Shown here in pieces: positions 17,104-57,630 of a stretch of DNA of 64,000 nt. The notes beneath the pieces are model-generated. The model searched no databases. It saw only the letters and a list, made by a program, of their open reading frames with translations, and was not told the DNA's origin. Position numbers and translations under genes: made by a program. The DNA comes from an uncultured bacterium. GTDB lineage: Bacteria > Omnitrophota > Omnitrophia > Omnitrophales > Aquincolibacteriaceae. The DNA lies in the NCBI GenBank assembly GCA_964606385.1, contig CAZSFZ010000001.1, positions 3,519 to 67,518 on the forward strand. The letters are read 5' to 3'. Every line of letters begins with the position of its first letter. The first letter of the stretch is position 1.

Positions 17104-17699
17104 GAGGCAATCTCCTTCGAACCCTGCAGGCCGGCCACATCTTCGGCCCCGATCAGGGTCCTGGAGATGTCGAGCGTGCACTTGATGATGTCGGAGCCCT
17201 TGGATTTGGGCCCCATTGAATAACGCTGGACCAGAAAAAGGTAATCGGATTGTTCCAGAAGATTGACGAACGAGAGCACATTCGTCAGCAATCCCTCGCA
17301 ATCGATGCTTGTCTTGTAGATCGAATAACTGGGTTTTTCTTCGACGTCTCCGGGGCGGACGCTCGTGATCGTCACATTCTGCTGTTTCGCCAGGGTCTCG
17401 ATCTTCTTGAGCAACGCGGCGATGATCGCTTCCTGGGTCATCTCCCCCGTGTCCAGATAGACGCTGTACTGGGCATACTCCTCCAGGATCCGGTCCCGGA
17501 AAGAAATGATCCGCTTGCTGCGTTTGATGTTCTCTTTCTGCGCCTTGCTTTCCGCTTTCATGTATTCGGTCTGGGACAGGAACGGTCCGAGCATCAGGCT
17601 GTCCATAAGCATCACGGCAACGCATACGACCGCTGCGATAAAAAGGGCCTTCCGTCCTCCCGTCAGACTGGCAAAAAATTCTTCGAGGTTTATTTTCAT
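17100..17699 (-). CDS. GspM/PilO-like inner-membrane assembly protein
   Basis: 199 aa. Short cytoplasmic N-terminus, one TM (ALFIAAVVCVAVMLM), then a periplasmic alpha/beta domain. Positioned directly after the PilM-PilN fusion. Confidence 0.5.
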   Translation of the reverse strand: MKINLEEFFASLTGGRKALFIAAVVCVAVMLMDSLMLGPFLSQTEYMKAESKAQKENIKRSKRIISFRDRILEEYAQYSVYLDTGEMTQEAIIAALLKKIETLAKQQNVTITSVRPGDVEEKPSYSIYKTSIDCEGLLTNVLSFVNLLEQSDYLFLVQRYSMGPKSKGSDIIKCTLDISRTLIGAEDVAGLQGSKEIAS

Positions 17700-17700: not shown

Positions 17701-19224
17701 TCAGAATCCCTGCGCCAGCACGCATTCGATCACAAAATCCGCAACATCCTGCTTTCCCTCTTTGCGCGATTGTGTTTCTTTCGTCTCGACCGACCCGAAG
17801 CGGTTGGAATCCCTCAACTGGGTCACAAAGGCGAACACGCGCGACATGGAATTGGCGGTCCCCGTCAAGGTCACGCGGCCTTCACTATCATAATCGACCT
17901 GCGCGAAATAAACGTCATCCCCGACATAATCATTGACGATCTTGAGGACCTGGAGCTCTTTCCCGCGGCTTTCAATCAGCTTTTTGACAATCCGGTTCTT
18001 GGTGGAGATCGACTCCAGCTTTTTGGCGTCTTCATTATATTGGCGGCTCGCCGTCAGGAGCTTTTGATTGACCAGCTTTTTAAAATAAATATTGCTGCCC
18101 ATGATCAGCGTTGTCAGAAAAAAGATGGCCATGATGAGAATACCGAGGCTCATGATGTCCCGGCCGCCTTCCCGGACCTGCTTCTTGATCTTGACCTCGC
18201 GCAAGAGAAGATTGATCTTGGCCTGCGCTTCATAAGCCAGCACCGAAAAAAGCTCAAAAAAGGAAAGCTGGCTTTCCTGATTGACCGCGCGCGTCGCCGC
18301 TTCATTCGCGTGGAAAAAATCCCGGTAATCGAAGGTGACCACTTCGATCTCTTTCACATGCATGCTGCCCGAGCGCCTGAGATCGTCTTCAAGGGTCGGT
18401 AATCCTTCGAGGATCCCCGTCGCGGAGATCAATTGGATCGGTTTTCCGACCCCTTGGTCAGCATACGCCCCGATGGACTTCGTGAGCTCGCTGATAAAAT
18501 CCTCCTTCGCCTGCTTGGCATTGGCACGAAGTGCGTCGGCTCCCACCGGAATATTGCGGACAAAAAGGATCTGCTCGCCTTCGATCACGGTCAGCTCCGA
18601 GTACTCTTCGCTAACATGCAATCCTCCCAAAGCCCCCTGGAGCGTTACCCCCCTTAAGGAATTGACGTAAGTCTTTACCATGCATTCGGATGCAACGACC
18701 ACCTTATCGAGGCTCAGTCCGGCCTGCTCGAAAATGGCCGGAAAGCGTTCGCCGATCTTCCGGTTCACGATAAAAAGCAGGACGCTTGTGTAGTGCTGCG
18801 CCGGAGCTTCCAGACACGAGAAATCGATCACGATCTCGTCGCGCATGTAAGGCGTGAAGCGCCCGGCCTGAAGATCGATGATCTTCGCAATTTCCTCTTT
18901 TTCCGTGGAAGGGATATCGATATTCTTGAAAATGTATTGCTTGGGGGAAATAATGCAAAGGCCTTGAGAGGGAGAGATCTTCTGCTTCTGACAATAAGAG
19001 GCAAGCGCCTGCGCGATCTCGGCATCGCTTTTACTGTCGATCTTTTCGGCGATCACGTTCTCGATCGTGAATTTTCCCTGGCTCGTCCGCCCGCTTCCGA
19101 TCTTGAGATGCTCCGCGCCGAGCGACACCACAAGCGTCACCGGAACGGGCATGAACCTGTCGAGCGGGCTCCCGCCCTTCGCCTTAGCTCCCCCGCCCGA
19201 TTTTTTGGGATCTAGGAGGGACAT
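17701..19224 (-). CDS. GspL-like protein: PilM (actin-like ATPase fold) fused to PilN-like TM/periplasmic domain
   Basis: 507 aa. The N-terminal ~350 aa are PilM-like. Then TM SLGILIMAIFFLTTLIMGS. Then a PilN-like C-terminus. Confidence 0.6.
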   Translation of the reverse strand: MSLLDPKKSGGGAKAKGGSPLDRFMPVPVTLVVSLGAEHLKIGSGRTSQGKFTIENVIAEKIDSKSDAEIAQALASYCQKQKISPSQGLCIISPKQYIFKNIDIPSTEKEEIAKIIDLQAGRFTPYMRDEIVIDFSCLEAPAQHYTSVLLFIVNRKIGERFPAIFEQAGLSLDKVVVASECMVKTYVNSLRGVTLQGALGGLHVSEEYSELTVIEGEQILFVRNIPVGADALRANAKQAKEDFISELTKSIGAYADQGVGKPIQLISATGILEGLPTLEDDLRRSGSMHVKEIEVVTFDYRDFFHANEAATRAVNQESQLSFFELFSVLAYEAQAKINLLLREVKIKKQVREGGRDIMSLGILIMAIFFLTTLIMGSNIYFKKLVNQKLLTASRQYNEDAKKLESISTKNRIVKKLIESRGKELQVLKIVNDYVGDDVYFAQVDYDSEGRVTLTGTANSMSRVFAFVTQLRDSNRFGSVETKETQSRKEGKQDVADFVIECVLAQGF

Positions 19225-19787
19225 GCCACCCTCACCGGAAGATCGATCATACTCATCATTTTCTGGCCTTCGCCTCCCTCGAGCTCAATTGTAACCTTAA
19301 CTGTCTCCGGAAAACAATTTCTATTCCACGCGGGGAACCAACGGTACCCCTTCGCGGTCGTGTCGTACGCGTAATATTCCAGTCCGAAGGACCGGACCTT
19401 GTCCAGAGCGGCGCGAAAAAGCTTCCGGTCCGCTTTGGATGTAACGGCCTCTTTGAAACTTTTCTGCAAGGAGACGAGCGTTTTACTTTTGGGATCATAT
19501 TGATAGCCCACATAAACAAGGTCACGGCCCGACAGGGACGCGAAAGCAAGGCCGTCCTTCTTCCCCTGGAAACCCCACTGCGGGTCCATGAACGCGTTTC
19601 TCAATTCAGACGTGAATTTCTCCACAAAAAGGCGGGCTTTCCATTCTGACCTGTCCTTGGATCCCCGGCTCCAAAGGCGGGTTCCCTGGGCGAAGGTCGT
19701 ATAGACGGCCCCTGCGAGGACCGCGGTGATCGTCACGGCGACGATCACTTCGACCAAACTAAAGCCCTGTCGTCTTCCAGCTTGCAT
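19212..19787 (-). CDS. Minor pseudopilin (GspJ-like)
   Basis: Prepilin N-terminus ...RRQGFSLVEVIVAVTITAVLAGAV. About 190 aa. Confidence 0.5.
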   Translation of the reverse strand: MQAGRRQGFSLVEVIVAVTITAVLAGAVYTTFAQGTRLWSRGSKDRSEWKARLFVEKFTSELRNAFMDPQWGFQGKKDGLAFASLSGRDLVYVGYQYDPKSKTLVSLQKSFKEAVTSKADRKLFRAALDKVRSFGLEYYAYDTTAKGYRWFPAWNRNCFPETVKVTIELEGGEGQKMMSMIDLPVRVACPS

Positions 19788-20211
19788 ACGGCACCATAAG
19801 GTAAAAAACACGGCTGATCGAGCGGCGGATCCCCCGATTCTCCCAGGATATTTTCGCTTCCGCCTCCAGCAGATTGTTATCGGGACTGATCGAACGGATA
19901 TTCAGATCGTATTGGTAGGCCCGGTGTTTCCCGAGCAGCACCTCATAACGCGGCACGGACGGAAAACTTTTCGGCTTTTCCTGCAGGCGCCGCTCGGTCT
20001 CCCAGATCTTGTTCTGCAAAAGCCATTCCGCCTGGTCCCAATTCTCAATCACGCTCAGGGCCGACAGGGATCCGATGAAGACCTTCTGGACCGCGACAAT
20101 GCCGACCGCAAGGATCACCACACTTAGGAGCACCTCGATCAGCGTAAAGCCTTTTTTAAGGCGGACCGCCCCCCTCCCGCTCATCACGTCCTTCGAAAAA
20201 GTCTTCTTCAT
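19759..20211 (-). CDS. Minor pseudopilin (GspI/GspH-like)
   Basis: Prepilin N-terminus KKGFTLIEVLLSVVILAVGIVAV. 150 aa. Confidence 0.5.
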   Translation of the reverse strand: MKKTFSKDVMSGRGAVRLKKGFTLIEVLLSVVILAVGIVAVQKVFIGSLSALSVIENWDQAEWLLQNKIWETERRLQEKPKSFPSVPRYEVLLGKHRAYQYDLNIRSISPDNNLLEAEAKISWENRGIRRSISRVFYLMVPYASWKTTGL

Positions 20212-20664
20212 TTATTTGGAGGGTTCCACTCCCCAGTTCACGATATCATCTTTGGCGGATTCGGGCTTCGGATCCTTGCCCAGAGAAGAAAGATCGTAAT
20301 CGTGGGGACGGCGCACTCCCGGGGACTGATATTGATAGGGCCGTTTCCAGGGATCCAGCGGTTGCTTTTCCAGATAGGGACCGTTCCAGTTCTCGGGGAT
20401 CGGGGTCGTGGTCGGTTTTTGCAGGAGCGCATTGAGGCCCTGGGTCGTGGTCGGAAGAAAACCGTTATCCAGTTCATAAAGTTTGAGAGCGGTCGGGATA
20501 TTCACTTCAATATCCGCCTTGGCCGCCGCCTGGCGCGCCTGTTCGGAACGCCCGGTGAGCCGCGGCACGACCATCGCCGAAAGCGTCGCGATAATGATCA
20601 CGACGAGAATGATCTCCACAAGCGAAAAACCTTTTTGAGAACACGGGACCTTGTCTTTTTTCAT
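20212..20664 (-). CDS. gspG: Major pseudopilin GspG
   Basis: QKGFSLVEIILVVIIIATLSAMVVP prepilin N-terminus. GspG core ...LDPWKRPYQYQSPG...DYDLSSLGKD. Alternative upstream start at 20697. Confidence 0.8.
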   Translation of the reverse strand: MKKDKVPCSQKGFSLVEIILVVIIIATLSAMVVPRLTGRSEQARQAAAKADIEVNIPTALKLYELDNGFLPTTTQGLNALLQKPTTTPIPENWNGPYLEKQPLDPWKRPYQYQSPGVRRPHDYDLSSLGKDPKPESAKDDIVNWGVEPSK

Positions 20665-20671
20665 AGAACCC

Positions 20672-21874
20672 TCACTGGTTAAAAACGATCGCATCAATAC
20701 TGAAAACGGGGAGCAGGATCGCCATGGCGACCAGCCCCAGAAGTAATCCGACGGTCAGGAGCGTTATAGGCTCCACCAATTGCGTCATGACCCGCGTGGA
20801 TTCATCGACCCGCTGGTCATACCAATCGGCAATATCGCGGAACGCCTGTTCCAAATGCCCCGTCTCTTCCCCAATGAGCAGCAAATGGACCGCAAAAAGC
20901 TGGAATCTCCCCGAGCTTTTTAGCGCCCCGCTCAGGGCAGCGCCTTGCTCCACCCGGCGCATCGCGGTCGCAAGGTCCTCCCGCATCGCTTCGTTAGAAA
21001 CCACGGGGACGGCGATCTTGAGGGCCTTCAGGAGAGGGACTCCCCCCTTCAGAAGCATTTCCATGGAGCGGGCAAAAGCGGCGAATTGGGCCATGAAAAC
21101 CATCTTGCCGGCCAGCGGCAGCCCCATCCTCCAGCGGGCCCATCGCACTTTCTGGACGGGACCTTTCGAACGCTTATAGAAAATGATGCCCAGAACCCCC
21201 GCGGCAAGAAGCACGATCAAACCGTAGTGCTGGACCCCGTCGCTAACCAGGATCAAGCCCCGCGTGAGCAGCGGAAGGTCCTGTCCGAACTCTTCGAAGA
21301 GCTTGGAGAACTGTGGCACCACATATGCCAAGAGATAGGCCACGGCAAAAAGGCCCAGCACCGCGACCAGCGAAGGATAGATCAACGCGTTCCGAACTTT
21401 CTGGAGAACGGAAAAACGCCGCTCGTGACATTCCGCCAAACGCGCCAGGGCCTCGTCCAGATGTCCCGTGTTCTCGCCCAATTCGACCATGGCCACCGCA
21501 AAAACATCGAACACAGCAGGATGTTCGCCCAAAGCCGCCGCGAAGGGTTTCCCGTGCCGGACTTCTTCCTTGATCGTTTCGCAGATCGACTGGAGTTTCC
21601 GGTCCTCGGTCTGTTCGGCCGTCACGGTCAGGGCCGCCAGTAGCGGGATCCCGGAGCGGACCAATCGCCCGAGCTGCTGATAGAAAAGCGTCAGCGAACG
21701 GCCACGGACCCCGCCCCCAAAAGGTCCCATTCCCCTTACGCCTTCTTCACGGACCTGGACGGGAAGCAGGTTCATTTCATGGATCTTGTCGACCGCCGCC
21801 GCATGCGACTCGGCCGACAGGATCCCTTTGATGAGTTCCTTGCCTTTTTTGGCTTCGTACTTGAATTTTTTCAT
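20672..21874 (-). CDS. gspF: T2SS/T4P inner-membrane platform protein GspF/PilC
   Basis: 400 aa. Two GspF repeat domains and three TM segments. N-terminus FKYEAKKGKELIKG... Confidence 0.85.
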   Translation of the reverse strand: MKKFKYEAKKGKELIKGILSAESHAAAVDKIHEMNLLPVQVREEGVRGMGPFGGGVRGRSLTLFYQQLGRLVRSGIPLLAALTVTAEQTEDRKLQSICETIKEEVRHGKPFAAALGEHPAVFDVFAVAMVELGENTGHLDEALARLAECHERRFSVLQKVRNALIYPSLVAVLGLFAVAYLLAYVVPQFSKLFEEFGQDLPLLTRGLILVSDGVQHYGLIVLLAAGVLGIIFYKRSKGPVQKVRWARWRMGLPLAGKMVFMAQFAAFARSMEMLLKGGVPLLKALKIAVPVVSNEAMREDLATAMRRVEQGAALSGALKSSGRFQLFAVHLLLIGEETGHLEQAFRDIADWYDQRVDESTRVMTQLVEPITLLTVGLLLGLVAMAILLPVFSIDAIVFNQ

Positions 21875-21880: not shown

Positions 21881-24226
21881 TTATTCACCAGATTTCATAT
21901 GCGTTTGGCAGAATTTTTCAAGCCGCGCGCGATCGATGCTATTGAGCACAAGAAACAAGGTCGCTACGGAAAGTTCCTCTCCCGAAAGCCCTAAGCGTGA
22001 GATGCGAAGCGCCTTGGCCATGCATTCAACGGGCTTCACACCATCGGAAAGACCGATCCTGAGCAGAAGAACGCTGCCGGCCTCCAGCACCTCTCCGATC
22101 TTAAGGGCCGCTCCCGGAATCACTCCGGCAGGCAACGGCTGGTCAAAGATCTTCAGCAAGATCCCGCCGGCACTGATATTTTCCGTAGAACCGGCCAAGG
22201 GGATCTCCGCGAGCTTTTCTTTGTATTTTTGGACCAAAGGCGATTTCGCGTGGCTTTCAATGATACGGAACGAAACAGGAGCTTCGAGCTGGATCCGCTG
22301 GTACTTGCGCATATTCACAAATTCGTGGTCGGACGCGGTTTTTTCCGCAGGAGTTTCGGAAAGATCGACCGGCGGGATGGCCGGTTTGAGCTCAGGCATC
22401 TCAGCCGCTTTGTCCGCCTCCAGGGTCCTCAAAAAACCGCTTTCGGGTGCTGCCGCAGGGGGCTTCGGATTTTCCGGGACCACGGAAGGAGCCATCGGCT
22501 TACTGTAGTTCAACTCCTCATGTTCCGTAACTTCAAGGATCTCCTCGGGGGTCGTGATCCCGGCAAGGACCTTCGACCAACCGTCCCGGCGAAGCGTGAC
22601 CATCCCCTGCTGGATCGCCAGGGATTTGATCGCTTCCGCGGTGGCGCGCGCCATGATCAATTTACGGAGAGGCTCGGTCAGGATGATGAGCTCTTGGATT
22701 GCAATGCGCCCCCGGTATCCCGTCCCGTTGCACTGTTCGCAGCCGCGCCCGTGAAGGATCCGGATCTCTTTTTGAGGAACACCGCTTTCCTTTTCAATAA
22801 GGCTTTTAATCTCGGAAGAAACGCCGGGGTTTTCCTCACGGCAGTGCGGGCAGATGACACGGACAAGCCGCTGGGCCATAAAAGCCACCACGCTTGACGC
22901 GATCAAATAAGGCTCCACGCCGATGTCCAGGAGCCGGGTCACGCCGCTTGCCGCATCATTTGTGTGAAGCGTGGAAAGGATCAAGTGCCCCGTCAATGCC
23001 GACTGGATCGCGATCTCGGCCGTTTCGAGATCCCGCACCTCCCCCACCATCATGACATCCGGGTCCTGCCGGAGCATGCTCCGCAGCCCGTTCGCGAACG
23101 TCAGCCCGATCTCGGGGTTCACATGGATCTGGCTGACGCCTTCAAGTTCATATTCCACAGGATCTTCGATCGTGATAATCTTCCGCGTGGGGACATTGAG
23201 GCGGTTCAGGGCAGCATACAGGGTCGTACTCTTCCCGCTCCCTGTCGGACCCGTGACGAACACGATCCCGTTCGTCCGGTTCAAAAGTTCTTCAAAGACC
23301 GCCTGCTGTTTCGGGTCAAAACCCAGTTTCTCGAGCTTGAAGACATTCTTGCCGGGCAGGATGCGGATCACCAAACTCTCCCCGTGCGCCGTCGGGATGA
23401 AGGAAACACGCAGGTCGAGGGTCTCATCCTGGGTCTTCACCCTCATCTTGCCGTCCTGGGGAAGCCTTTTCTCGGCCACATTCAGATTGGTCATGATCTT
23501 GATACGGGACAGCATCGGAGAGAAAAACTCCTTCATTTCGCGCGGAACCGGCGCCTGCTGCAAAATACCGTCGATCCGGTAGCGAAGGCGGATCCCCGAG
23601 GTCAGAGGTTCAAGATGGATGTCGCTCGCACGTTTTTTGTAGGCGTCCAGAATAATCTGGTTCACCACATGCGAGACTGAGGCCGTGGAAGCGAGTTTTT
23701 CGATATCTTCTACTTCCTGAACGGGCGCCGAAGCCGAAGGCCGTTCATTCGCCGGGGTCACGGCAAGGATCTTGTCCACGGTCTCCGCGGCAAGGCCGTA
23801 ATGCTTCACGAGCATCTCTTCGATGTCCTTCTCCAGGGCGAAGCAAAGCTCGATATCGGTCCCCAACGCGAAACGCATCTCATCCAGAGTATGAATGTCG
23901 GGGATCCTGTGGACCGCGATCACGATCTTTCCGTTCTTCTGCTGGACCGGAAAAAATTTATAATAGGAAGCGAATTTCACGGGGACATTCTTGAAAACCT
24001 CGGGATCCGGCGCGGTCGTCTTGAGATTGATGACCGGCCGTCCCGTATTCTTGGAAAAAATATCGAGCAGTTGTTCTTCCGTAAGAAGGCCGGCATCGAT
24101 CACGACACGCAGGAACGGACTCGAATTCTGTTCGGCCTCCCGAAAAGCTTTCTCAAGCGCCTCTTTTGGGACGGCGCCTGACTCAAGAAGGATCTTGAAT
24201 GAGTTTTTGTCCAAAACGGGTTTCAT
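21881..24226 (-). CDS. gspE: T2SS/T4P assembly ATPase GspE/PilB with C-terminal PilZ (c-di-GMP-binding) domain
   Basis: Walker A GPTGSGKSTTL. Asp/His boxes. Tetracysteine CPHC...CEQC. After a Pro-rich linker comes a C-terminal ~110-aa domain with PilZ motifs RKYQR (RxxxR) and ENISAGG (D/NxSxGG). 781 aa. Confidence 0.85.
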   Translation of the reverse strand: MKPVLDKNSFKILLESGAVPKEALEKAFREAEQNSSPFLRVVIDAGLLTEEQLLDIFSKNTGRPVINLKTTAPDPEVFKNVPVKFASYYKFFPVQQKNGKIVIAVHRIPDIHTLDEMRFALGTDIELCFALEKDIEEMLVKHYGLAAETVDKILAVTPANERPSASAPVQEVEDIEKLASTASVSHVVNQIILDAYKKRASDIHLEPLTSGIRLRYRIDGILQQAPVPREMKEFFSPMLSRIKIMTNLNVAEKRLPQDGKMRVKTQDETLDLRVSFIPTAHGESLVIRILPGKNVFKLEKLGFDPKQQAVFEELLNRTNGIVFVTGPTGSGKSTTLYAALNRLNVPTRKIITIEDPVEYELEGVSQIHVNPEIGLTFANGLRSMLRQDPDVMMVGEVRDLETAEIAIQSALTGHLILSTLHTNDAASGVTRLLDIGVEPYLIASSVVAFMAQRLVRVICPHCREENPGVSSEIKSLIEKESGVPQKEIRILHGRGCEQCNGTGYRGRIAIQELIILTEPLRKLIMARATAEAIKSLAIQQGMVTLRRDGWSKVLAGITTPEEILEVTEHEELNYSKPMAPSVVPENPKPPAAAPESGFLRTLEADKAAEMPELKPAIPPVDLSETPAEKTASDHEFVNMRKYQRIQLEAPVSFRIIESHAKSPLVQKYKEKLAEIPLAGSTENISAGGILLKIFDQPLPAGVIPGAALKIGEVLEAGSVLLLRIGLSDGVKPVECMAKALRISRLGLSGEELSVATLFLVLNSIDRARLEKFCQTHMKSGE

Positions 24227-25683
24227 ATGCTGACACGGCTTTTCTTTTTAGGAGTTCTCCCGATCAGGTAGAAATCGCTGGCGGGAAGCTTGTCGAAAAC
24301 CCCGCTCACGATCGCCTCGCAATCATCAACCGCGTCCGAGACCGCCACGAATTCCCCTTTTCTTCCCGTGAACGCTTCGCCGACCGTGAACGGCTGGGTC
24401 ATGAAATTAAGGAGCTTCTCGGCGCGTCTGAAGTCGATCTGGTCCTCTTTCGGCAGCTCCTCCACGCCCACCACCTGGACGATGCGCTTCAAGGAATTGT
24501 GCTTCGCGAAAAGCGCGAGCATCTTCTGGCTCAGGTTATACGCCTTCTGTCCGACGATACGGGGGTCCAGGTTCGCGCAGCCGCTCTTGAGCGGGTCGAT
24601 CGCGGGATAAAAACCCTTCTGGGCGAGGTCGCGCGAAAGCGACAGGGCGCCGTCCAGACAGCTGAAGATCGCCACGACCGCGGGGTCGGTCATATCGTCG
24701 GAAGGCACGTAAACGGCCTGCAGGGAGGTGATCGAGCCGCGGCCGGGGATCGACCGGATCCTTTCCTGTACTGAATTAACCTCGGATTGGAGGGTCGGCT
24801 GATAGCCGGATTCCCCTGGGACGCGCCCGAGAAGCGCCGAGATCTCCTGACCTCCCTGAATAAAACGAAACACATTATCCATGAACAGGAGCACGTCCTT
24901 GTTCTGTTCGGCCATATCTTCCGCGAGCGTAATCCCGGTGTTCACGCACTCATAACGCGCGCCCGGCGGCTCATTCATCTGACCGAACACCAGCTTGACC
25001 TTCGGCAACAGGTTATTTTCTTTCAGTTCCGCGAAAAGGTCGTAACCTTCGCGGATGCGTTCCCCGATACCCGTAAAAATACAAACCCCACTGTGTTTCT
25101 TGACGATATTATTGATCAGTTCGAGGATAACGACGCTCTTGCCGCAGCCGGCACCACCCAGAATCCCCATTTTACTCCCCTTGCAAAGCGGGAAAAGCAG
25201 GTCGATGTACTTGATCCCGGTCTCAAGGAATTCGGGTTTGGCACCGAACTTGCTTTTCAGGTTGAATTGTTCCTCGCGGGGCGGCCGCCGGATGACCTTG
25301 AAATCCTTTCCCGTGAACGCCCCCAACTGATCGATCGGATCCCCGAACACATTGATGATCCTCCCGAAAAGCTCGTCCCCTGTGCGGATCGTGACCGGCT
25401 TCATGGTGTTGATCACCTTGGAATTAAGCTGAAGGTTCAGGGTCTCGGATAGAGAGATGCAGCGGACATCGTTCTTGCTTAAGTGCTCGGCGACTTCCAT
25501 CACGACCTTGCGTTTGTCGAACGTTTGTCCCACCAGCACGTCAAAAAGGGCCGGAAGATCGCTGATCTTGTCAAAGGTCACATCGACCACGGGACCGCGG
25601 ACACCGATGATCCTCCCTTGGACGTTCTTGGTGAACGCCGCTTCCATCGGGGTTTTTTCTGTGCTTTTTATTTCTTCATCCAT
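24223..25683 (-). CDS. atpD: F-type ATPase beta subunit
   Basis: GGAGCGKSVVILELINN...GIGERIREGYDLF, LLFMDNVFRFIQGGQEISALLGRVP, SITSLQAVYVPSDDMTDPA are collinear with F1-beta. Confidence 0.9.
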   Translation of the reverse strand: MDEEIKSTEKTPMEAAFTKNVQGRIIGVRGPVVDVTFDKISDLPALFDVLVGQTFDKRKVVMEVAEHLSKNDVRCISLSETLNLQLNSKVINTMKPVTIRTGDELFGRIINVFGDPIDQLGAFTGKDFKVIRRPPREEQFNLKSKFGAKPEFLETGIKYIDLLFPLCKGSKMGILGGAGCGKSVVILELINNIVKKHSGVCIFTGIGERIREGYDLFAELKENNLLPKVKLVFGQMNEPPGARYECVNTGITLAEDMAEQNKDVLLFMDNVFRFIQGGQEISALLGRVPGESGYQPTLQSEVNSVQERIRSIPGRGSITSLQAVYVPSDDMTDPAVVAIFSCLDGALSLSRDLAQKGFYPAIDPLKSGCANLDPRIVGQKAYNLSQKMLALFAKHNSLKRIVQVVGVEELPKEDQIDFRRAEKLLNFMTQPFTVGEAFTGRKGEFVAVSDAVDDCEAIVSGVFDKLPASDFYLIGRTPKKKSRVSI

Positions 25684-26585
25684 TAGCGTGTTTTCCTCGT
25701 TGATGCAAAACTGGCCGCCGTAAAAACCTCACGCACCGCCTTATTCAACTCTTCGCGCAACCCCTTCCTGAAAGAGATCAGAAGGCTCCGCCGTTCCGTG
25801 CCCAGCGATTCCAGAGCAGATTCCAGCTGCTGGGCCTGGATCGCCGCCTCCGTGAGCGGAATATCGTCCACGATCTCGTAAAGACGGCAATAGATCCAGA
25901 TGCCGGCGATCGTTCTCATGATGGAATTCCCGGACGTTTCAAGGATCACGTCAAACCTTCGTTGATCGTCCGCGACCTGGTCCTCATCCCCTTGCGTGAT
26001 ATCCCCGCCCCGGGTCCGGACCAGCTCGCCGGCCGGAAGCAAGGTCAGGATACGGGGTTTGATGACGGCAAAGCTCTTCGCCCACACGTGAACCAGGATC
26101 GTTTTGCCCGCCTGCCCGTTCATGATCCGTTCCGTCAGATAATCGCGAAGATAATGCGAAAGATCAAAGCGGTTCGGGAACTCCCCGAGCGTCAGGACCT
26201 TCTCGATCCGTTCCACCCCCATCATTTTCAGCATGGTCGCGCAGCGTCTTCCCAGGCAGATCACGCTCGAACCCGGGTATTTGATGTACTGTTGATGCGC
26301 GATCGCCGTGACCTTGGAATTCATCTGCGACATAAACGACTGGTCGGAAGCCAGCACTACAATATCCACCCCTGGATGGTCGTTCCTCAGTAACGGACAT
26401 GTGGTATTAATGTTCTTTACAGTTTCCAGAAATTCCAAAAACGCGTCAAAGAACCTTTGAAGGTTCTTCTTTTTCGCTGAAAACGCGAAAAAACGGCTTG
26501 TGGCGACGTCCTTGATAACCGAAATGATCTCTAACAGCGTATCAACATCATCCAAATCGCCTTTGATCCGTGTGACCTTGCTCAT
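25683..26585 (-). CDS. atpG: Putative F-type ATPase gamma subunit (divergent)
   Basis: 300 aa, in the gamma slot before beta. N-terminal helix ISVIKDVATSRFFAFSAKK resembles gamma ITKAMEMVAASKMRK. Otherwise divergent. Confidence 0.45.
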   Translation of the reverse strand: MSKVTRIKGDLDDVDTLLEIISVIKDVATSRFFAFSAKKKNLQRFFDAFLEFLETVKNINTTCPLLRNDHPGVDIVVLASDQSFMSQMNSKVTAIAHQQYIKYPGSSVICLGRRCATMLKMMGVERIEKVLTLGEFPNRFDLSHYLRDYLTERIMNGQAGKTILVHVWAKSFAVIKPRILTLLPAGELVRTRGGDITQGDEDQVADDQRRFDVILETSGNSIMRTIAGIWIYCRLYEIVDDIPLTEAAIQAQQLESALESLGTERRSLLISFRKGLREELNKAVREVFTAASFASTRKTR

Positions 26586-26597
26586 GCGCGACGGCCT

Positions 26598-27338
26598 TTA
26601 GGCCTGGAACTCCAATTTCTCTTTCATTTTCACGGACGATTCATTGACCGCATTGGCAAAACTCCCGTCCAAAAGAAGCGTTCCCATCTGCAGCACCACC
26701 CCGGCGATCAAGGGGATCTCCACGCTTGTTTCGATCTTGAGATCGGGCACATTCAGCTTCTGGCCCAGGATGCTTCGGAATTCATCTTTTTCTATCTGGT
26801 TCAAAGGGAACGCCGAACGGATCACCGGCGGGTTTTCTTTAACATCGACGGCGCTAAAGTCCGCCTTGGAGATCTCCTTGATGAAATCTTTCACGAATTG
26901 GGCATGAAGGAGCAGCGTGGCCTCAGGCGAAAAGATCGACTTCAGCATTTCGGCCGTAAAATCGATGACCTGCCGGCTCACCTCGGTCCGGATTTCACGG
27001 CTCAACTGGTCCCGTGACCCGTAAGCCTTGGAAATGATATCCTCCGCCTCCGTTCTCGCTTTTTTGACGATCTCCTCTTCCTTCTTGCGGGCTTTTTCAA
27101 GGGCCTGATTGGAAAGTTTGTCGGCGATCAGAGCCGCTTCTTCTTTCTTGGCCTGAAATTCTTTCTCCGCCATCTCATTCTTTTCGAGAAGCTCGCGCTG
27201 TTTCTTGACGAGTTCCTCATAGACGGAGCTCAGCCTCCGGACATTCGACTCCGTATCCCCGGACATCATTTTTCTCATGAAAAACACGAGCACGCAAAAA
27301 ACGATGATCTGTAAAAGCACGAATTGCAGTGTCAGCAT
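26598..27338 (-). CDS. F-type ATPase peripheral-stalk protein: b-like (TM plus coiled coil) with delta/OSCP-like C-terminal segment
   Basis: N-terminal TM LLQIIVFCVLVFF. Long K/E-rich helix. C-terminus ...IPLIAGVVLQMGTLLLDGSFANAV resembles the delta C-terminus. Confidence 0.5.
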   Translation of the reverse strand: MLTLQFVLLQIIVFCVLVFFMRKMMSGDTESNVRRLSSVYEELVKKQRELLEKNEMAEKEFQAKKEEAALIADKLSNQALEKARKKEEEIVKKARTEAEDIISKAYGSRDQLSREIRTEVSRQVIDFTAEMLKSIFSPEATLLLHAQFVKDFIKEISKADFSAVDVKENPPVIRSAFPLNQIEKDEFRSILGQKLNVPDLKIETSVEIPLIAGVVLQMGTLLLDGSFANAVNESSVKMKEKLEFQA

Positions 27339-27350
27339 AACGCTCCTTTT

Positions 27351-27581
27351 TTAAATAACCGATTTTGGCATAAAGATCTGAAAAGTGATGAGCAGGGAAA
27401 TGATCGAGGTCGCTTCCGCAAAGAGCAACATCAGGATCACGCCCAGATAGATCTTGGGCGCCGCCGAGGGGTTCCGGCCTAGTGCCTTAATACTGGCCGC
27501 TCCCACGACCGCAATCACGATCGAAGGGCCGACCACCGCGATGAACATGGCTATCAGGACCGCGACATTCTGTTGGTTCAT
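27351..27581 (-). CDS. atpE: F-type ATPase c subunit (proteolipid)
   Basis: 76 aa, two-TM hairpin with polar loop GRNPSAAPK and carboxylate E in helix 2 (LLFAEATSIISL). Confidence 0.75.
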   Translation of the reverse strand: MNQQNVAVLIAMFIAVVGPSIVIAVVGAASIKALGRNPSAAPKIYLGVILMLLFAEATSIISLLITFQIFMPKSVI

Positions 27582-27597
27582 AGGACCTTTCCTTTTT

Positions 27598-27876
27598 TTA
27601 GATATCCCACGATTCTTTCATGCCTTTAAAACTCGTGTCGACCTCCACGATCATGTAACAGCGGTTCTCGCGGAAGCTTACGACCCCCAGCCGGATCGGG
27701 ATGCTCGGATGATCGGCGATCTTAATGTCGCCTTCCACCAGCGTCGACACCAGCGGGTGGTGAAAAGCCAAAAGTTCGAACTCCCCTTCCTCGCTGGCCA
27801 AATAGACCGATTCGACCATATCATCAAATACCAAGCCCTGCAAACTTAAGACTTGCAGCTGGAACTTTGGCTTCAT
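27598..27876 (-). CDS. atpC: F-type ATPase epsilon subunit, beta-sandwich domain only (no C-terminal helical hairpin)
   Basis: 92 aa. FELLAFHHPLVSTLVEGDIKI matches epsilon G.E.GILPGH.PLLT.L..G. Confidence 0.6.
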   Translation of the reverse strand: MKPKFQLQVLSLQGLVFDDMVESVYLASEEGEFELLAFHHPLVSTLVEGDIKIADHPSIPIRLGVVSFRENRCYMIVEVDTSFKGMKESWDI

Positions 27877-27885
27877 GCGCGGCCG

Positions 27886-54291: not shown

Positions 54292-55203
54292 TTACGGCTC
54301 CTTTTGAAGCTCCTCAAAGTCCTTTTTGAGAGGCTCATCGGGCCCGATGCGGGACAGTTGGTTGAGATCCCAAAGGCGGATCCGGATCTTCCGGGCTTCT
54401 TCGCTGGGCGGCTTGAGATTTAAATAATACTGATAGTACTTCCTTGCCTCCTCCTGATTCGCAAGGTGATAGTCATAAATGATCGCCAGATTGTGATACG
54501 CCCATGACAGTTTTGGATTCAAATTCAGCGCATTCTTATATTGAGCGATCGCGTCCTCATAACGGCCGAGGTCATAATAAATATTCCCAAGGTCGAAATA
54601 GGTGCCCACCAGCTGGTCTTTGAGATTGAGGTTCTCCGAATTAACGCCCGCGACCGCATTGACCGAGCCCTTGACGGATTCCTCGTTCTTTTTCGCGACA
54701 TCCAGAATGCGGCTCCGTTCCGGCTCGAGCACGGACTGGTTCAAAAGGCCTTTTAATTTTTCGTTGGTCTCGCTGAGTTCCTGGTTCTTCGCCGCGAGTT
54801 CCTGCTGCTTGATCGCGGACTCGAGACCGCCGCCCTCGGCCTGTGAAGGTTCCTGGCGGGACGCGTCCAGCTCGTTCTTTAAGGCGGCCGCGTTGGGCGT
54901 CCGTGCGTACCCCCCGCCCTGCGCGCGCAAAGCGAGGTCGTCCCTCTCCGTTTTGAGCTTCTCGTAAGAATCCTGAAGGTCGCGCATGTTCTGCCGCACA
55001 CGGCGATTTTCTTTTAGCGTTTCATTTAGCGTATACAGTATTTTTTCGACGTTCTGTCCCTCAGGCGTCGCGGGCGCGGCAGCTTCCGGTTTGGGATCTT
55101 TTTCATCCGCCGCGAGGGCCACAAACGGAATCACTCCAAGGGAGAAAACCAAAGCGATCAATATAAGTAGAAAAAATTTCGTGCAGGAAAAAACCTTATT
55201 CAT
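54292..55203 (-). CDS. Exported coiled-coil/TPR protein (possible PilF/pilotin-like secretin accessory)
   Basis: Signal peptide. Long heptad region. C-terminal TPRs (GNIYYDLGRYEDAIAQYKNALNLNPKLSWAYHNLAIIY). Its start overlaps the secretin stop. Confidence 0.45.
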   Translation of the reverse strand: MNKVFSCTKFFLLILIALVFSLGVIPFVALAADEKDPKPEAAAPATPEGQNVEKILYTLNETLKENRRVRQNMRDLQDSYEKLKTERDDLALRAQGGGYARTPNAAALKNELDASRQEPSQAEGGGLESAIKQQELAAKNQELSETNEKLKGLLNQSVLEPERSRILDVAKKNEESVKGSVNAVAGVNSENLNLKDQLVGTYFDLGNIYYDLGRYEDAIAQYKNALNLNPKLSWAYHNLAIIYDYHLANQEEARKYYQYYLNLKPPSEEARKIRIRLWDLNQLSRIGPDEPLKKDFEELQKEP

Positions 55204-56945
55204 TGCTGCGCCCTTTTGATGTCCGGGATCTTTTGCATCATCGCCGCGGATCCGTCCATCCTCCCCGATGAATACAAAACGCGATCCCCCTCGCGTTTGG
55301 CCGCGAGGTCATACGCCCCGATCCCCAGCATGCTCATCGAATTGACCGGCGCGGTCCGCGCGGATTGCGAAGTCGGATTCCGTGTCTTGATCGGGATCGG
55401 TTTGTCGAGATACTCCTCTTCGCCGGTCACGATGCGCGGAGTAATAATAACCGCGATCTCGGTTTTTTTGTAGCTTTCATTGCGCGCCTTGAACATATGG
55501 CCCAGCACAGGGATATCCATCAAATAGGGAAGCCCCTGATTTTTGATGGTCTGCTCGTCACGGATGAGCCCGCCCAGGATCACGGAATTCCCGTCCTGAA
55601 CGATCACGGTGGATTCCACGAAGGTCGTATTGACTTTCGGGATCACGTTGTTGGTGGGAGTCACCAATTCGCCGATCTGGCTCGAGATCTCCGGACGGAT
55701 CTTCATCGTCACAAAACCCTTGTCGTTAATGACCGGCGTCACCACCAGCACAAGCCCGATATCGATAAACCGGATATCTTCGCTCACGGACACGTTATTC
55801 CCGGTCCCGGTCGAGGTGGTCACCACATACGGGATCCGGTCCCCGATATTGATCTTCGCCTCTTCGCGGTCGAGGATCATGACCCTCGGATTCGCGAGCA
55901 ACTTCGTGTCCTCAACTTCCTTGACCGCCTGGAGCTGCGCCGCGATCTCGTTGGTCGAAAAATTCCCGATCATGATCTGCCCATACCTTCCAAGTGCGGA
56001 CGTGGTGTCGGCCATCGGGAAGGAACTGCTGACGCTGGAATTATCAAGCTGGCGAAACACTTTTTGCCAATCGATCCCCCAGCTGTATTTCGGGTTGAGC
56101 GTCAGCTGCAGGATCCGGGTCTCCACCATCACGGCGCGTGTCTGCCGGTCAAGCGCCTTGACCAGCCGAATCGCTTGGTCCATCCGTTCGGGATAAGCAG
56201 TGATCATGATCTGGTTTGACCGCGCGTCGGCCGACACGGTCCCGACGCCTTTTCCGTCGATCTGGGGTTTCAGCTGAGCCGCGACCTCCTCGGCTTTCGC
56301 GAACTGCAGCTTGACCACCTGGGTGTTCACATTGCTTTCCACCTGATTCAGAATCGTGTTCATCTGCATGAGTTTTTCAGGGATATCGATCATGACCACG
56401 GTCCCGGCGTCTTCATCGATGATCACCTTCCCGATCGCGCTCTGAACAGACTGCAGGGTCGCAAGCACATAGCTCGGCTTGGCCGTCTTGAGCGTGCGGA
56501 TCGAGACTTTTTTGTTGTCGTTGAAATTTTTCCCGTGCGTGAGCCCGTACTCATCTTCGGTCATGATGTAGATGATGCCGTTCCGGATCTCATAGGCAAG
56601 CTGGTTGGAGATCACCAGAATATCCAAAGCGTCTTTGATCTTGACGTTTTTGAGAAGCAGCGTCGAACGCCCCTGGACGTTACGGCTCGTCACGACATTG
56701 AGTCCGCCCTGAACGGCGATAAATTTAAAGACATCAATGACGTTGATGTCGCGCAGATCGAGAAAGATCGTTTTCTCAAGTCCCGTCGAGGGATCTTTAG
56801 CCGTAGCCGCACCGGGCGCGGGCGCCGCGGGCTTCGGCAGCGGGTCTGCCGGGAAAGCGGCCGGCACAAGGGACAGACTGACCGTCATAACGACAGCCAG
56901 CATCAATCTGAAAAACCTGTAAAAGCCTTTTTGCTGTTCCATGGT
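55200..56945 (-). CDS. gspD: Secretin GspD/PilQ
   Basis: Start MEQQKGFYRFF... Signal peptide. N domains. C-terminal secretin signature NSVILGGLIRDE...GLPYLMDIPVLGHMFKA...TEIAVIITPRIV. Confidence 0.85.
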   Translation of the reverse strand, partial: TMEQQKGFYRFFRLMLAVVMTVSLSLVPAAFPADPLPKPAAPAPGAATAKDPSTGLEKTIFLDLRDINVIDVFKFIAVQGGLNVVTSRNVQGRSTLLLKNVKIKDALDILVISNQLAYEIRNGIIYIMTEDEYGLTHGKNFNDNKKVSIRTLKTAKPSYVLATLQSVQSAIGKVIIDEDAGTVVMIDIPEKLMQMNTILNQVESNVNTQVVKLQFAKAEEVAAQLKPQIDGKGVGTVSADARSNQIMITAYPERMDQAIRLVKALDRQTRAVMVETRILQLTLNPKYSWGIDWQKVFRQLDNSSVSSSFPMADTTSALGRYGQIMIGNFSTNEIAAQLQAVKEVEDTKLLANPRVMILDREEAKINIGDRIPYVVTTSTGTGNNVSVSEDIRFIDIGLVLVVTPVINDKGFVTMKIRPEISSQIGELVTPTNNVIPKVNTTFVESTVIVQDGNSVILGGLIRDEQTIKNQGLPYLMDIPVLGHMFKARNESYKKTEIAVIITPRIVTGEEEYLDKPIPIKTRNPTSQSARTAPVNSMSMLGIGAYDLAAKREGDRVLYSSGRMDGSAAMMQKIPDIKRAQQ

Positions 56946-56952
56946 TTTTTTC

Positions 56953-57630
56953 CTAACGCAGTTCAACCCGATCCTCGCCCAGCGAAAGCACCACATGTTC
57001 TTCGTTGATCTTCGCGACCTTCAAAAGCCCGATCGGATCTCCTTCCCGCAAGAACGTCGTGATCCCTTTTTGGACATCTTCGATCATGCAGTAAACCTTG
57101 CTTGGATCCGTCGGGTTGTAGGAGATCCCGGTCAGCTTCAAGGTTTTTGTCATCTCCACAAGTTTGGTCGATTGCTCTTTTTCGAGCTTCTGAGCTTCTT
57201 CCGCGCGCTTGCTGTACGGCATGAACATCTTGCCGAGGTCCCAACTTTCGACCGGCTCTGTTTCCTTTGCCATCTCGCTGACCGGCGGGGGTTCCAGCAT
57301 CTTCGGTTCCAAGGTCCCGATCGAACCCACGACGTCTTTTTGGAGACCCGCAACCCCGAGCAACAGATCCGCCATGAACACCAGCCCCAGCACGACCACC
57401 AGATAGCGAAGGATCCGGTTCAGTTCTTTAATGCCGAACGAGGACTTGATCCGTTCAAACAGCTCGGTCGAAGCGTTCAGGAACTTCTCGGCCCACAGCC
57501 TCGGATCGAACTGTCCCGCCTGCTGGACTTTCTTGGCTCCCGCCGCTATATCTTTTTGATAAGCGCTCGGTTCCTCGATCAGATCAAGAAGCCGCTTCTC
57601 CGGCGTTAATGAGGAATCTGGCTGAGCCAT
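56953..57630 (-). CDS. GspC/PilP-like inner-membrane secretin-interacting protein
   Basis: One TM (LRYLVVVLGLVFMADLLLGVAGL) after a cytoplasmic N-terminus. Periplasmic C-terminal beta domain. Sits between ExeA and the secretin. Confidence 0.4.
   Translation of the reverse strand: MAQPDSSLTPEKRLLDLIEEPSAYQKDIAAGAKKVQQAGQFDPRLWAEKFLNASTELFERIKSSFGIKELNRILRYLVVVLGLVFMADLLLGVAGLQKDVVGSIGTLEPKMLEPPPVSEMAKETEPVESWDLGKMFMPYSKRAEEAQKLEKEQSTKLVEMTKTLKLTGISYNPTDPSKVYCMIEDVQKGITTFLREGDPIGLLKVAKINEEHVVLSLGEDRVELR

What the first reader, a model, noticed from the sequence alone, without database searches (positions are those of the whole stretch)
21881..24226. GspE/PilB ATPase with a C-terminal PilZ domain
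After the complete GspE core (Walker A, tetracysteine zinc site) and a Pro-rich linker, the last ~110 aa carry the two PilZ signature motifs (RKYQR and ENISAGG). This would make filament or secretion activity directly c-di-GMP-responsive. c-di-GMP control of T2SS/T4P ATPases is known through the MshE N-terminal domain and separate PilZ proteins. A C-terminal PilZ fusion to GspE is unusual.
Basis: seen in the sequence. Interest (0 to 1): 0.6.

Follow-up and report, generated by a model that had tools for sequence, protein, structure and literature searches.

The report
Secretion-motor ATPase with fused PilZ sensor
The motor ATPase of a secretion/pilus-type machine in an uncultured Omnitrophota bacterium carries a built-in C-terminal PilZ receptor for the signal molecule c-di-GMP, apparently replacing the N-terminal c-di-GMP site that related motors use.

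Summary
ORF 21881-24226 (minus strand, 781 aa) has four parts: an MshEN domain, a GspE/PilB-type ATPase (Walker A, four zinc-site cysteines), a disordered Pro-rich tether of about 60 aa, and a C-terminal PilZ domain (residues about 640-780).

Pfam scores this PilZ just under threshold (22.3 vs 22.5 bits) because of clade-specific loop insertions. Other evidence settles it:
- All 40 sampled relatives' tails hit PilZ.
- RxxxR and [D/N]xSxxG are essentially invariant in 116 relatives.
- The AF2 model (pLDDT 94) matches only PilZ structures.

The fusion is not a one-off. It defines a clade of more than 100 protein clusters, and every named member is Omnitrophota.

The fused clade has lost the MshE-type N-terminal c-di-GMP motif: 0/58 members plus 0/4 locus proteins (including the window's own) pass NCBIfam NF053729. 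All 6 nearest PilZ-less relatives pass, including a syntenic Omnitrophota ortholog whose operon encodes a REC-GGDEF cyclase. This looks like a relocation of the c-di-GMP sensor on one motor.

The gene sits in a conserved operon: giant protein, F-type ATPase genes, GspE-PilZ, GspF, pseudopilins.

I found no description of this fusion in the searchable literature. It is a new variant of a known kind. Ligand binding and the direction of regulation are inferred, not shown.

The parts
21881..24226 (-). Whole gene: MshEN / GspE-PilB-type ATPase / disordered linker / PilZ, 781 aa
   Evidence: ORF listing, translation, Pfam, NCBIfam. It is 100% identical to public protein P0002.
24044..24208 (-). N-terminal four-helix bundle (residues 7-61). 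It corresponds to the 53-residue MshE c-di-GMP-binding region, but the motif is degenerate: N8/F10/A31 and P37/L39/N60 stand where the motif has R/G/Q.
   Evidence: AF2 helices 7-16, 21-34, 38-44 and 50-61. NF053729 scores 23.2-26.1 bits against a cut-off of 38. Column counts are, the alignment against PilZ-less relatives, and the motif definition in PMC5013675.
23786..24043 (-). MshEN (T2SSE_N) Pfam domain, residues 62-147
   Evidence: PF05157, E = 5.2e-17.
22535..23692 (-). T2SSE ATPase core (N2D + CTD), residues 179-564
   Evidence: PF00437, E = 1.3e-129. GspE model 583.8 bits and PilB model 553.8 bits, both below their equivalog cut-offs.
23228..23251 (-). Walker A GPTGSGKS (residues 326-333)
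   Evidence: G326-K332 are invariant in 58 relatives; S333 is nearly invariant (at least 90%).
22730..22852 (-). Tetracysteine zinc-binding region: CPHC (459-462) and CEQC (496-499)
   Evidence: C459, C462, C496 and C499 are invariant.
22313..22498 (-). Pro-rich disordered tether, residues 577-638
   Evidence: AF2 pLDDT below 50 across 577-638. Linker length varies from 30 to 92 aa in the family and the sequence is poorly conserved.
21887..22309 (-). Canonical PilZ domain, residues 640-780: N-terminal loop, six-stranded beta-barrel and C-terminal helix. It has clade-specific insertions between beta1 and beta2 and between beta3 and beta4.
   Evidence: AF2 of the tail: pLDDT 93.9, pTM 0.85. The top 39 Foldseek PDB hits are all PilZ domains. 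All 40 relatives' tails hit PF07238. The family profile hits the PilZ domain of 5vx6.
22295..22309 (-). RxxxR motif (RKYQR, residues 640-644)
   Evidence: R640 and R644 are 116/116.
22163..22180 (-). [D/N]hSxxG motif (NISAGG, residues 683-688)
   Evidence: D/N is 116/116, S is 114/116 and G688 is 116/116.
24223..25683 (-). Upstream gene: F-type ATPase beta-like subunit. Its stop codon overlaps the gspE-PilZ start codon (ATGA).
   Evidence: Pfam, junction sequence, conserved adjacency in relatives.
20672..21874 (-). Downstream gene: GspF/PilC platform protein, starting 6 nt after the gspE-PilZ stop codon
   Evidence: PF00482, E = 2.6e-57, junction, conserved adjacency.
17701..20697 (-). GspG-like major pseudopilin (20212-20697), two N-methyl pseudopilins including a GspJ-like one (19212-20211), and a PilM-PilN fusion (17701-19224)
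   Evidence: Pfam.
55200..56996 (-). GspD-type secretin of the same machine, upstream of the giant gene
   Evidence: Secretin, E = 2.4e-46, and Secretin_N.

Best explanation
The gene encodes the assembly ATPase of a T2SS-like type IV filament machine in an Omnitrophota bacterium. A canonical, ligand-competent PilZ domain is tethered to its C-terminus by a flexible linker of about 60 residues.

Proposed mechanism:
1. c-di-GMP binds the PilZ domain. The RxxxR loop wraps the ligand against the [D/N]hSxxG strand.
2. The liganded PilZ docks back onto the ATPase hexamer, or onto its N-terminal MshEN domain or platform partners (GspF, PilMN). This licenses ATP-driven pseudopilus assembly.
3. Operation of the machine, and of the co-operonic giant surface protein, is thereby coupled to cellular c-di-GMP.

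Proposed evolution: an ancestor sensed c-di-GMP through the N-terminal MshEN motif, as V. cholerae MshE does. One Omnitrophota lineage acquired PilZ by gene fusion and then let the MshEN site decay.

What is shown: the domain architecture, the fold, motif conservation, clade distribution, loss of the MshEN motif, and synteny.

What is inferred: c-di-GMP binding, intramolecular docking, and the sign of regulation. I favour activation, because PilZ appears to substitute for an activating MshEN site.
For: PilZ identity:
- The tail scores 22.3 bits against PF07238.
- All 40 relatives' tails hit PilZ, best E = 7.8e-16.
- The family profile hits the PilZ domain of B. subtilis MotI/YpfA, 5vx6.
- The AF2 model has pLDDT 93.9.
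- The top 39 PDB fold matches are all PilZ domains, many solved with c-di-GMP bound.

Ligand competence: RxxxR and [D/N]xSxxG are invariant or nearly so in 116 proteins at 45-100% identity.

Real, selected fusion:
- More than 100 clusters from independent assemblies have the same length and architecture.
- All 34 fused sequences fall in one clade of an ATPase-core tree.

Sensor swap:
- NF053729 (MshE c-di-GMP motif, cut-off 38 bits) gives 55-68 bits in 6/6 of the nearest PilZ-less relatives.
- It gives 36.2 bits or less, or no hit, in 4/4 fused proteins, and 0/58 fused members reach E <= 1e-9.
- Motif scoring and the alignment agree.
- The basal fused members L007 and L012 look intermediate.

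Link of c-di-GMP to this machine:
- The syntenic PilZ-less Omnitrophota locus L008 has a REC-GGDEF gene in the same gene string.
- L006 has di-PilZ and PilZ genes right after GspE-PilZ.
- GGDEF domains and small pilZ genes near Omnitrophota giant genes are reported in bioRxiv 10.1101/2023.11.21.568195.

Operon context: tight coupling to atpB and gspF, and synteny conserved down to 41-48% identity.
Against: - No binding or activity data exist.
- This particular sequence is 0.2 bits below Pfam's PilZ gathering score.
- No GGDEF, EAL or HD-GYP gene lies in the window or within +/-10 kb of the fused loci examined. c-di-GMP synthesis in this genome is therefore unverified.
- MshEN binding of c-di-GMP is largely hydrophobic (PMC5013675), and the hydrophobic skeleton is retained here. 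Residual N-terminal binding cannot be excluded.
- The full-length AF2 monomer gave no usable information on docking.
- The NJ tree has no support values, and PilZ-less L008 nests beside basal L007. Gain-then-loss versus placement error is unresolved.
Confidence: 0.68

Rival explanations
1. The PilZ tail binds c-di-GMP but acts as a brake, as YcgR and MotI do on the flagellar motor. Liganded PilZ would inhibit the ATPase or uncouple it from GspF, shutting the machine down at high c-di-GMP.
For: The closest solved structures by sequence profile and by fold are MotI/DgrA (5vx6) and YcgR-type PilZ domains, which inhibit motors. A long flexible tether suits an autoinhibitory or clutch arrangement.
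Against: Characterised c-di-GMP inputs to GspE/PilB-type ATPases (MshE and related proteins) promote function (PMC5013675, PMC4624772). PilZ here appears to have replaced such a site, which suggests the same sign. Fold similarity to MotI reflects the generic PilZ fold, since BcsA and Alg44, which are activating, score almost as well.
Confidence: 0.2
2. The tail is a ligand-independent protein-interaction adaptor, like the Xanthomonas or Pseudomonas PilZ protein that binds the PilB N-terminal domain without binding c-di-GMP. It would serve only to recruit a partner.
For: A non-binding PilZ that interacts with PilB is an established precedent (PMC8389850; bioRxiv 10.1101/814665). No cyclase is encoded nearby.
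Against: Non-binding PilZ proteins lack the RxxxR and DxSxxG motifs and have an altered fold. Here both motifs are invariant in 116 sequences, and the model is a full six-strand barrel plus helix that matches ligand-bound PilZ structures.
Confidence: 0.07
3. It is a dual sensor. Both the MshEN domain and the PilZ domain bind c-di-GMP, perhaps with different affinities, giving a two-threshold response.
For: The MshEN hydrophobic and Gly skeleton (L13, L14, G17, L24, F28, G46, L53, F57) is retained. Hydrophobic contacts dominate MshEN binding. Basal member L007 scores 36.2 bits, just under the 38-bit cut-off.
Against: The RLG Gly residues, whose backbone amides read the guanine, and both Gln residues are replaced in nearly all fused proteins. 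0/58 fused members plus 0/4 fused locus proteins pass the curated motif model, against 6/6 PilZ-less relatives.
Confidence: 0.05

Closest known systems
MshE-type ATPases with a c-di-GMP-binding MshEN domain (V. cholerae MshE VC0405; P. aeruginosa PA14_29490)
   Same: It has the same ATPase family (T2SSE) and the same N-terminal MshEN fold. The concept is also the same: the motor of a type IV filament or T2SS machine carries its own c-di-GMP receptor.
   Different: The receptor is a C-terminal PilZ beta-barrel on a disordered tether, not the N-terminal four-helix 53-residue motif. That motif is degenerate here: NF053729 scores 23-26 bits against a cut-off of 38.
PilB-PilZ-FimX complex of Xanthomonas citri (and PilZ/PilB in P. 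aeruginosa)
   Same: A PilZ-fold protein physically associates with a PilB-type ATPase to control filament assembly.
   Different: In Xanthomonas the PilZ is a separate protein, lacks the c-di-GMP motifs and does not bind the ligand, and c-di-GMP is sensed by FimX. Here the PilZ is covalently fused and keeps canonical binding motifs.
BcsA cellulose synthase and Alg44 (fused PilZ domains that gate a secretion machine; C-terminal in BcsA)
   Same: A canonical PilZ is fused to the catalytic or energising subunit of an envelope-spanning export machine. The fold match is strong (5ej1, 4p00, 4rt0).
   Different: The partner domain is a hexameric cytoplasmic traffic ATPase rather than a membrane glycosyltransferase or HlyD-like protein. 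The long disordered tether implies a different docking geometry.
YcgR / MotI (DgrA, YpfA) flagellar brake and clutch proteins
   Same: MotI is the best PDB match by both profile and fold. These are PilZ domains that regulate a molecular motor.
   Different: They are free two-domain PilZN-PilZ proteins that act on flagellar rotor or stator components, and they are not fused to the motor ATPase.
T2SS-like loci next to Omnitrophota giant genes (West-Roberts et al., bioRxiv 10.1101/2023.11.21.568195)
   Same: The phylum and locus type are the same: gspD/E/F genes, pseudopilins, a giant gene and pilZ genes nearby.
   Different: That work describes small stand-alone pilZ genes and does not mention a GspE-PilZ fusion, the MshEN motif loss or the interposed F-type ATPase genes.

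Membership tests
Canonical PilZ domain (PF07238; definition of Galperin & Chou, bioRxiv 10.1101/814665) | RxxxR motif in the loop preceding beta1 | tested here: met
   RKYQR at residues 640-644. Both Arg are 116/116 in relatives. In the model the motif precedes the first strand.
Canonical PilZ domain (PF07238; definition of Galperin & Chou, bioRxiv 10.1101/814665) | [D/N]hSxxG motif | tested here: met
   N-I-S-A-G-G at residues 683-688, with h = Ile. D/N is 116/116, S is 114/116 and the final G is 116/116.
Canonical PilZ domain (PF07238; definition of Galperin & Chou, bioRxiv 10.1101/814665) | Six-stranded beta-barrel followed by one long C-terminal alpha-helix | tested here: met
   The AF2 tail model (pLDDT 93.9) has six strands and helix 132-149. 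The top 39 Foldseek PDB hits are all PilZ domains, E down to 5e-6.
Canonical PilZ domain (PF07238; definition of Galperin & Chou, bioRxiv 10.1101/814665) | Profile score at or above Pfam's gathering threshold (22.5 bits) | tested here: inconclusive
   This sequence scores 15.9 bits (whole protein) and 20.3-22.3 bits (tail). All 40 homologous tails match at E <= 1e-3, best 7.8e-16. The shortfall is explained by clade-specific insertions.
Canonical PilZ domain (PF07238; definition of Galperin & Chou, bioRxiv 10.1101/814665) | Binds c-di-GMP | not testable with these tools
   Inferred from motif invariance and fold only.
GspE/PilB-type T2SS/T4P assembly ATPase (PF00437 T2SSE) | T2SSE domain with Walker A and the conserved catalytic boxes | tested here: met
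   PF00437, E = 1.3e-129, residues 179-564. GPTGSGKS at 326-333. Invariant core residues are listed.
GspE/PilB-type T2SS/T4P assembly ATPase (PF00437 T2SSE) | Tetracysteine zinc site in the C-terminal domain | tested here: met
   CPHC at 459-462 and CEQC at 496-499. All four Cys are invariant.
GspE/PilB-type T2SS/T4P assembly ATPase (PF00437 T2SSE) | Encoded with a GspF/PilC platform protein, (pseudo)pilins, an assembly platform and a secretin | tested here: met
   GspF, GspG-like and GspJ-like pseudopilins, GspK, a PilM-PilN fusion and a secretin lie on the same strand.
GspE/PilB-type T2SS/T4P assembly ATPase (PF00437 T2SSE) | Equivalog-level assignment to GspE (TIGR02533) or PilB (TIGR02538) | tested here: not met
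   583.8 bits against a cut-off of 630.25, and 553.8 against 675.65. It belongs to the superfamily but cannot be called an orthodox GspE or PilB.
MshE-type c-di-GMP-binding MshEN domain | MshEN (T2SSE_N) fold | tested here: met
   PF05157, E = 5.2e-17. A four-helix bundle plus alpha/beta subdomain appears in the AF2 model.
MshE-type c-di-GMP-binding MshEN domain | Tandem 24-residue motif RLGxx(L/V/I)(L/V/I)xxG(L/V/I)(L/V/I)xxxxLxxxLxxQ, two copies with a 5-residue spacer (PMC5013675). NF053729 cut-off is 38 bits. | tested here: not met
   23.2-26.1 bits. The R/G/Q positions read N8/F10/A31 and P37/L39/N60. 0/58 fused relatives reach about 38 bits, while 6/6 PilZ-less relatives score 55-68 bits.

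The most novel reading that the evidence does not exclude
Within one bacterial phylum, a molecular motor has swapped its second-messenger sensor. An ancestral N-terminal MshEN c-di-GMP site on the T2SS-like ATPase was functionally replaced by a C-terminally fused PilZ domain and then decayed.

The resulting c-di-GMP-gated motor is co-transcribed with a divergent F-type ATPase and a giant surface protein. This would make c-di-GMP the switch that arms the attachment or predation apparatus of Omnitrophota.
Probability: 0.4. Interest if true: 0.7.

Novelty: new variant of a known kind. Interest (0 to 1): 0.55.

Why it matters
c-di-GMP control of type IV filament and T2SS motors is known through two routes. 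One is the MshEN domain in cis. The other is separate adaptor proteins (PilZ, FimX) in trans.

A covalent PilZ fusion would be a third solution. Its sister lineages keep the MshEN site in the same operon context, which gives a natural experiment in how the same signal can be wired into the same hexameric ATPase through two unrelated receptor folds at opposite ends of the protein.

The fusion also gives a concrete regulatory handle on the machinery that surrounds the giant genes of Omnitrophota. These are ultra-small, partly predatory or host-dependent bacteria with almost no experimental genetics. The tail is about 140 aa and folds confidently, so binding and structural tests are straightforward.

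Tried and rejected
1. A k-mer-indexed homologue search with the tail alone found only one 134-aa fragment. It was uninformative, and the full-length query was needed.
2. The search for related loci with the tail alignment failed because no stretch was conserved enough.
3. The look-up of encoding contigs could not locate the window protein or its identical database twin P0002. The rest of the source contig, and any cyclase genes on it, could not be examined.
4. Regex and Pfam screens found no GGDEF, EAL or HD-GYP gene in the window or in the fused-clade loci. The only GGDEF found is in the PilZ-less locus L008.
5. Full-length AF2 gave well-folded domains but no accessible inter-domain geometry, so docking of PilZ onto the ATPase could not be assessed.
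6. An assembly or frameshift artefact was considered and rejected, because the same architecture recurs on many independent contigs from different projects.
7. I considered that the 466-aa upstream protein might be the missing F-ATPase a-subunit and rejected it. It has a signal peptide, a coiled-coil-rich body and a single C-terminal TM segment.
8. Literature searches for a described GspE/PilB-PilZ fusion found none. These covered PilZ architecture surveys, a PilB cofactor review and two Omnitrophota genome papers. The library lacks most subscription journals, so absence is not proof.
Full report
**1. Observation**

The window contains one uninterrupted minus-strand ORF at 21881-24226 encoding 781 aa.

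- Pfam finds T2SSE at residues 179-564 (E = 1.3e-129) and MshEN at 62-147 (E = 5.2e-17).
- Walker A (GPTGSGKS, 326-333) and two CxxC pairs (459-462, 496-499) are present. All four cysteines are invariant among relatives; Walker A G326-K332 are invariant and S333 is nearly so.
- RKYQR lies at 640-644 and NISAGG at 683-688.
However, the domain begins at about residue 640 and is about 141 aa long, not the last 110 aa.

**2. Is the tail a PilZ domain?**

On this sequence alone Pfam is borderline. It scores 15.9 bits on the whole protein and 20.3-22.3 bits on the isolated tail, against a gathering score of 22.5. Four independent lines settle the question.

- **Homologues.** A full-length search returned more than 100 clusters of 712-805 aa at 45-100% identity covering the whole query. 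Most already carry precomputed PF07238 + PF05157 + PF00437, and all named ones are Candidatus Omnitrophota/Omnitrophica.
- **Motif conservation.** In 116 full-length relatives R640, R644 and G688 are 116/116, D/N683 is 116/116 and S685 is 114/116, amid variable neighbours.
- **Profile searches.** All 40 sampled tails hit PilZ at E <= 1e-3, best 7.8e-16. A profile of these tails hits the PilZ domain of B. subtilis YpfA/MotI in the PDB.
- **Structure.** AF2 on the tail alignment gives pLDDT 93.9 and pTM 0.85, with six strands and a terminal helix. The top 39 Foldseek PDB matches are all PilZ domains, including MotI, PP4397, BcsA, Alg44, YcgR, MapZ, MrkH, VCA0042 and PlzA. Many of these were solved with c-di-GMP bound.

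The tail alignment shows why this clade scores low. It has a longer beta1-beta2 insert and an extra ~20-residue loop after the [D/N]xSxxG strand, both of which more distant members lack.

**3. Whole-protein anatomy**

Full-length AF2 (pLDDT 82) shows three well-folded modules: MshEN (7-156), N2D+CTD (184-566) and PilZ (640-780). A segment at 577-638 with pLDDT below 50 joins the ATPase to PilZ. The linker varies from 30 to 92 aa in the family.

**4. The N-terminal c-di-GMP site is gone**

The MshE motif is two copies of RLGxx(L/V/I)(L/V/I)xxG(L/V/I)(L/V/I)xxxxLxxxLxxQ with a 5-residue spacer (PMC5013675).

- The skeleton survives here (L13, L14, G17, L24, F28; G46, L53, F57). The R/G/Q positions, however, read N8/F10/A31 and P37/L39/N60. 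Across the family these positions are never the motif's G or Q.
- NCBIfam's curated motif model NF053729 (cut-off 38 bits) gives 23.2-26.1 bits for the window protein.
- The same model gives 55-68 bits for 6/6 of the nearest PilZ-less relatives (L008, L009, L010, L014, L015, L019).
- It fails in 4/4 fused proteins: window 26.1, L012 26.9, L007 36.2, L006 no hit.
- None of 58 fused family members reaches E <= 1e-9, roughly the cut-off.

**5. Distribution and origin**

- A capped scan of species-representative genomes returned 80 GspE/PilB loci.
- An HMM of the tails finds a fused PilZ only in L005, L006 and L012 (Omnitrophota) and L007 (labelled Planctomycetota, with the same synteny).
- All other relatives, from PVC and other phyla, end just after the ATPase domain.
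- An NJ tree of the ATPase core puts all 34 fused sequences in one clade. The only PilZ-less sequence inside it is L008, next to the basal fused L007. The tree has no support values.
- L008 is an Omnitrophota locus with the same gene order. Its 575-aa GspE has an intact MshEN motif (67.9 bits), and a REC-GGDEF diguanylate cyclase (E = 1.2e-40) sits in the same gene string.
- An exhaustive profile search shows the fused PilZ belongs to a large ordinary PilZ radiation, with 9438 representatives at E <= 1e-3. Many of the top hits are stand-alone or tandem PilZ proteins.

The simplest history is one fusion of a stand-alone pilZ gene to gspE in an Omnitrophota lineage, followed by decay of the MshEN site.

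**6. Genomic context**

All genes lie on the minus strand, in this order:

| Gene or product | Coordinates |
|---|---|
| GspA-like AAA ATPase | 57606-58541 |
| Secretin | 55200-56996 |
| TPR protein | 54292-55203 |
| FGE-sulfatase-domain protein | 52371-54014 |
| 7170-aa repeat protein | 30862-52374 |
| 466-aa membrane-anchored unknown | 29397-30797 |
| F-type ATPase alpha, epsilon, c, b/delta, gamma, beta | 24223-29388 |
| GspE-PilZ | 21881-24226 |
| GspF | 20672-21874 |
| GspG-like pseudopilin, two further pseudopilins | 19212-20697 |
| PilM-PilN fusion | 17701-19224 |
| TPR protein | 16339-17625 |
| STT3 oligosaccharyltransferase | 12606-15161 |
| GT2 glycosyltransferase | 11150-12181 |
| GspK | 10078-11301 |
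| S41 protease | 8966-10108 |

The atpB stop codon overlaps the gspE start codon (ATGA), and gspF starts 6 nt after the gspE stop codon. The same order recurs in relatives down to 41-48% identity. No GGDEF, EAL or HD-GYP gene and no second PilZ is present in the window.

**7. Mechanism**

I consider c-di-GMP binding by the tail likely, given invariant ligand-contact motifs on a canonical fold. The tether allows the liganded domain to reach any surface of the hexamer, its own MshEN domain or the platform proteins.

PilZ seems to have taken over from an MshEN site, and characterised MshE-type inputs promote function. I therefore favour activation or licensing of assembly, with a brake model as the main rival. 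These steps are inference, and the tools could not test docking.

**8. Comparison with the known, and novelty**

c-di-GMP control of these motors is established for MshEN in cis and for PilZ/FimX in trans. Fused PilZ domains are established for BcsA, Alg44 and many signalling proteins.

Several sources do not mention a GspE/PilB-PilZ fusion:
- two PilZ architecture surveys;
- a 2024 review of PilB cofactors;
- the two Omnitrophota giant-gene and genome papers.

The proteins themselves are in public databases, with PilZ hits precomputed. I therefore rate this a new variant of a known kind. It is a real, conserved and apparently undescribed architecture with a clear evolutionary story, but the regulatory principle is familiar.

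**9. Limits**

- There is no biochemical evidence.
- The tree lacks support values.
- The rest of the source genome could not be reached, so its c-di-GMP enzymes could not be checked.
- The searchable literature is incomplete.

Noticed in passing
window 24223-29388 (minus strand); also L001-L004, L006-L008, L012: A set of F-type ATPase genes in the unusual order alpha, epsilon, c, b/delta fusion, gamma, beta sits directly upstream of gspE-PilZ, with no recognisable a-subunit. The beta stop codon overlaps the gspE start codon. The arrangement is conserved across the clade, and gamma and b/delta are very divergent (20-27% identity between loci). This may explain why a 2026 preprint reports gamma as 'missing' from most Omnitrophota. 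Co-operonic F-ATPase and T2SS-like genes are odd and may deserve their own study.
   Followed up: partly
window 30862-52374 (minus strand): A 7170-aa ORF with strong negative GC skew (-0.25 to -0.31). Its only Pfam signals are massive Lysostaphin_N-like short tandem repeats. It lies between the secretin and the ATPase/T2SS genes, and relatives have large (truncated ORFs of ≥1187-1774 aa) to giant (8495 aa in L003) ORFs at the same position.
   Followed up: partly
window 29397-30797 (minus strand): A 466-aa protein with no Pfam hit. It has a signal peptide, a long charged coiled-coil-like body and a single C-terminal TM segment. It is conserved in position between the giant gene and the ATPase genes in the syntenic loci where the upstream flank is available (L001-L004, L006, L008, L012).
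   Followed up: partly
L008 4054-4965: A REC-GGDEF diguanylate cyclase (E = 1.2e-40) is encoded inside the syntenic gene string of an Omnitrophota genome. That genome's GspE lacks PilZ but has an intact MshE-type c-di-GMP motif.
   Followed up: yes
L006 12191-13599: A tandem di-PilZ gene (303 aa) and a single-PilZ gene (174 aa) lie immediately downstream of GspE-PilZ, ahead of gspF. They are possible donors or paralogues of the fused domain.
   Followed up: partly
L077 3094-5085: A PAS-HisKA-HATPase_c histidine kinase with a C-terminal PilZ domain (664 aa) is encoded just upstream of a PilZ-less GspE and GspF in another Omnitrophota genome.
   Followed up: partly
window 12606-15161 and 11150-12181 (minus strand): An STT3/PglB-type oligosaccharyltransferase and a GT2 glycosyltransferase are embedded in the T2SS-like cluster, and the placement is conserved in relatives. 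This suggests N-glycosylation of pseudopilins or of the giant protein.
   Followed up: no
window 17701-19224 (minus strand): PilM and PilN are fused in one 507-aa protein, and the fusion is conserved in relatives (477-507 aa).
   Followed up: no
L007 (JBFMDM010000003.1): This contig is labelled Planctomycetota but carries the ATP-synthase / GspE-PilZ arrangement typical of Omnitrophota, and it branches at the base of the fused clade. No GspF was detected within 10 kb downstream. Either the taxon is mislabelled or the lineage is a divergent sister.
   Followed up: partly
window residue 639 of the ORF (nt 22310-22312): The residue before RxxxR is Met here, but Arg in 59/116 relatives and Leu in 26/116. 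From memory of work on PP4397 and VCA0042 (not checked here), this position influences whether PilZ binds monomeric or dimeric c-di-GMP, so stoichiometry may differ within the family.
   Followed up: no
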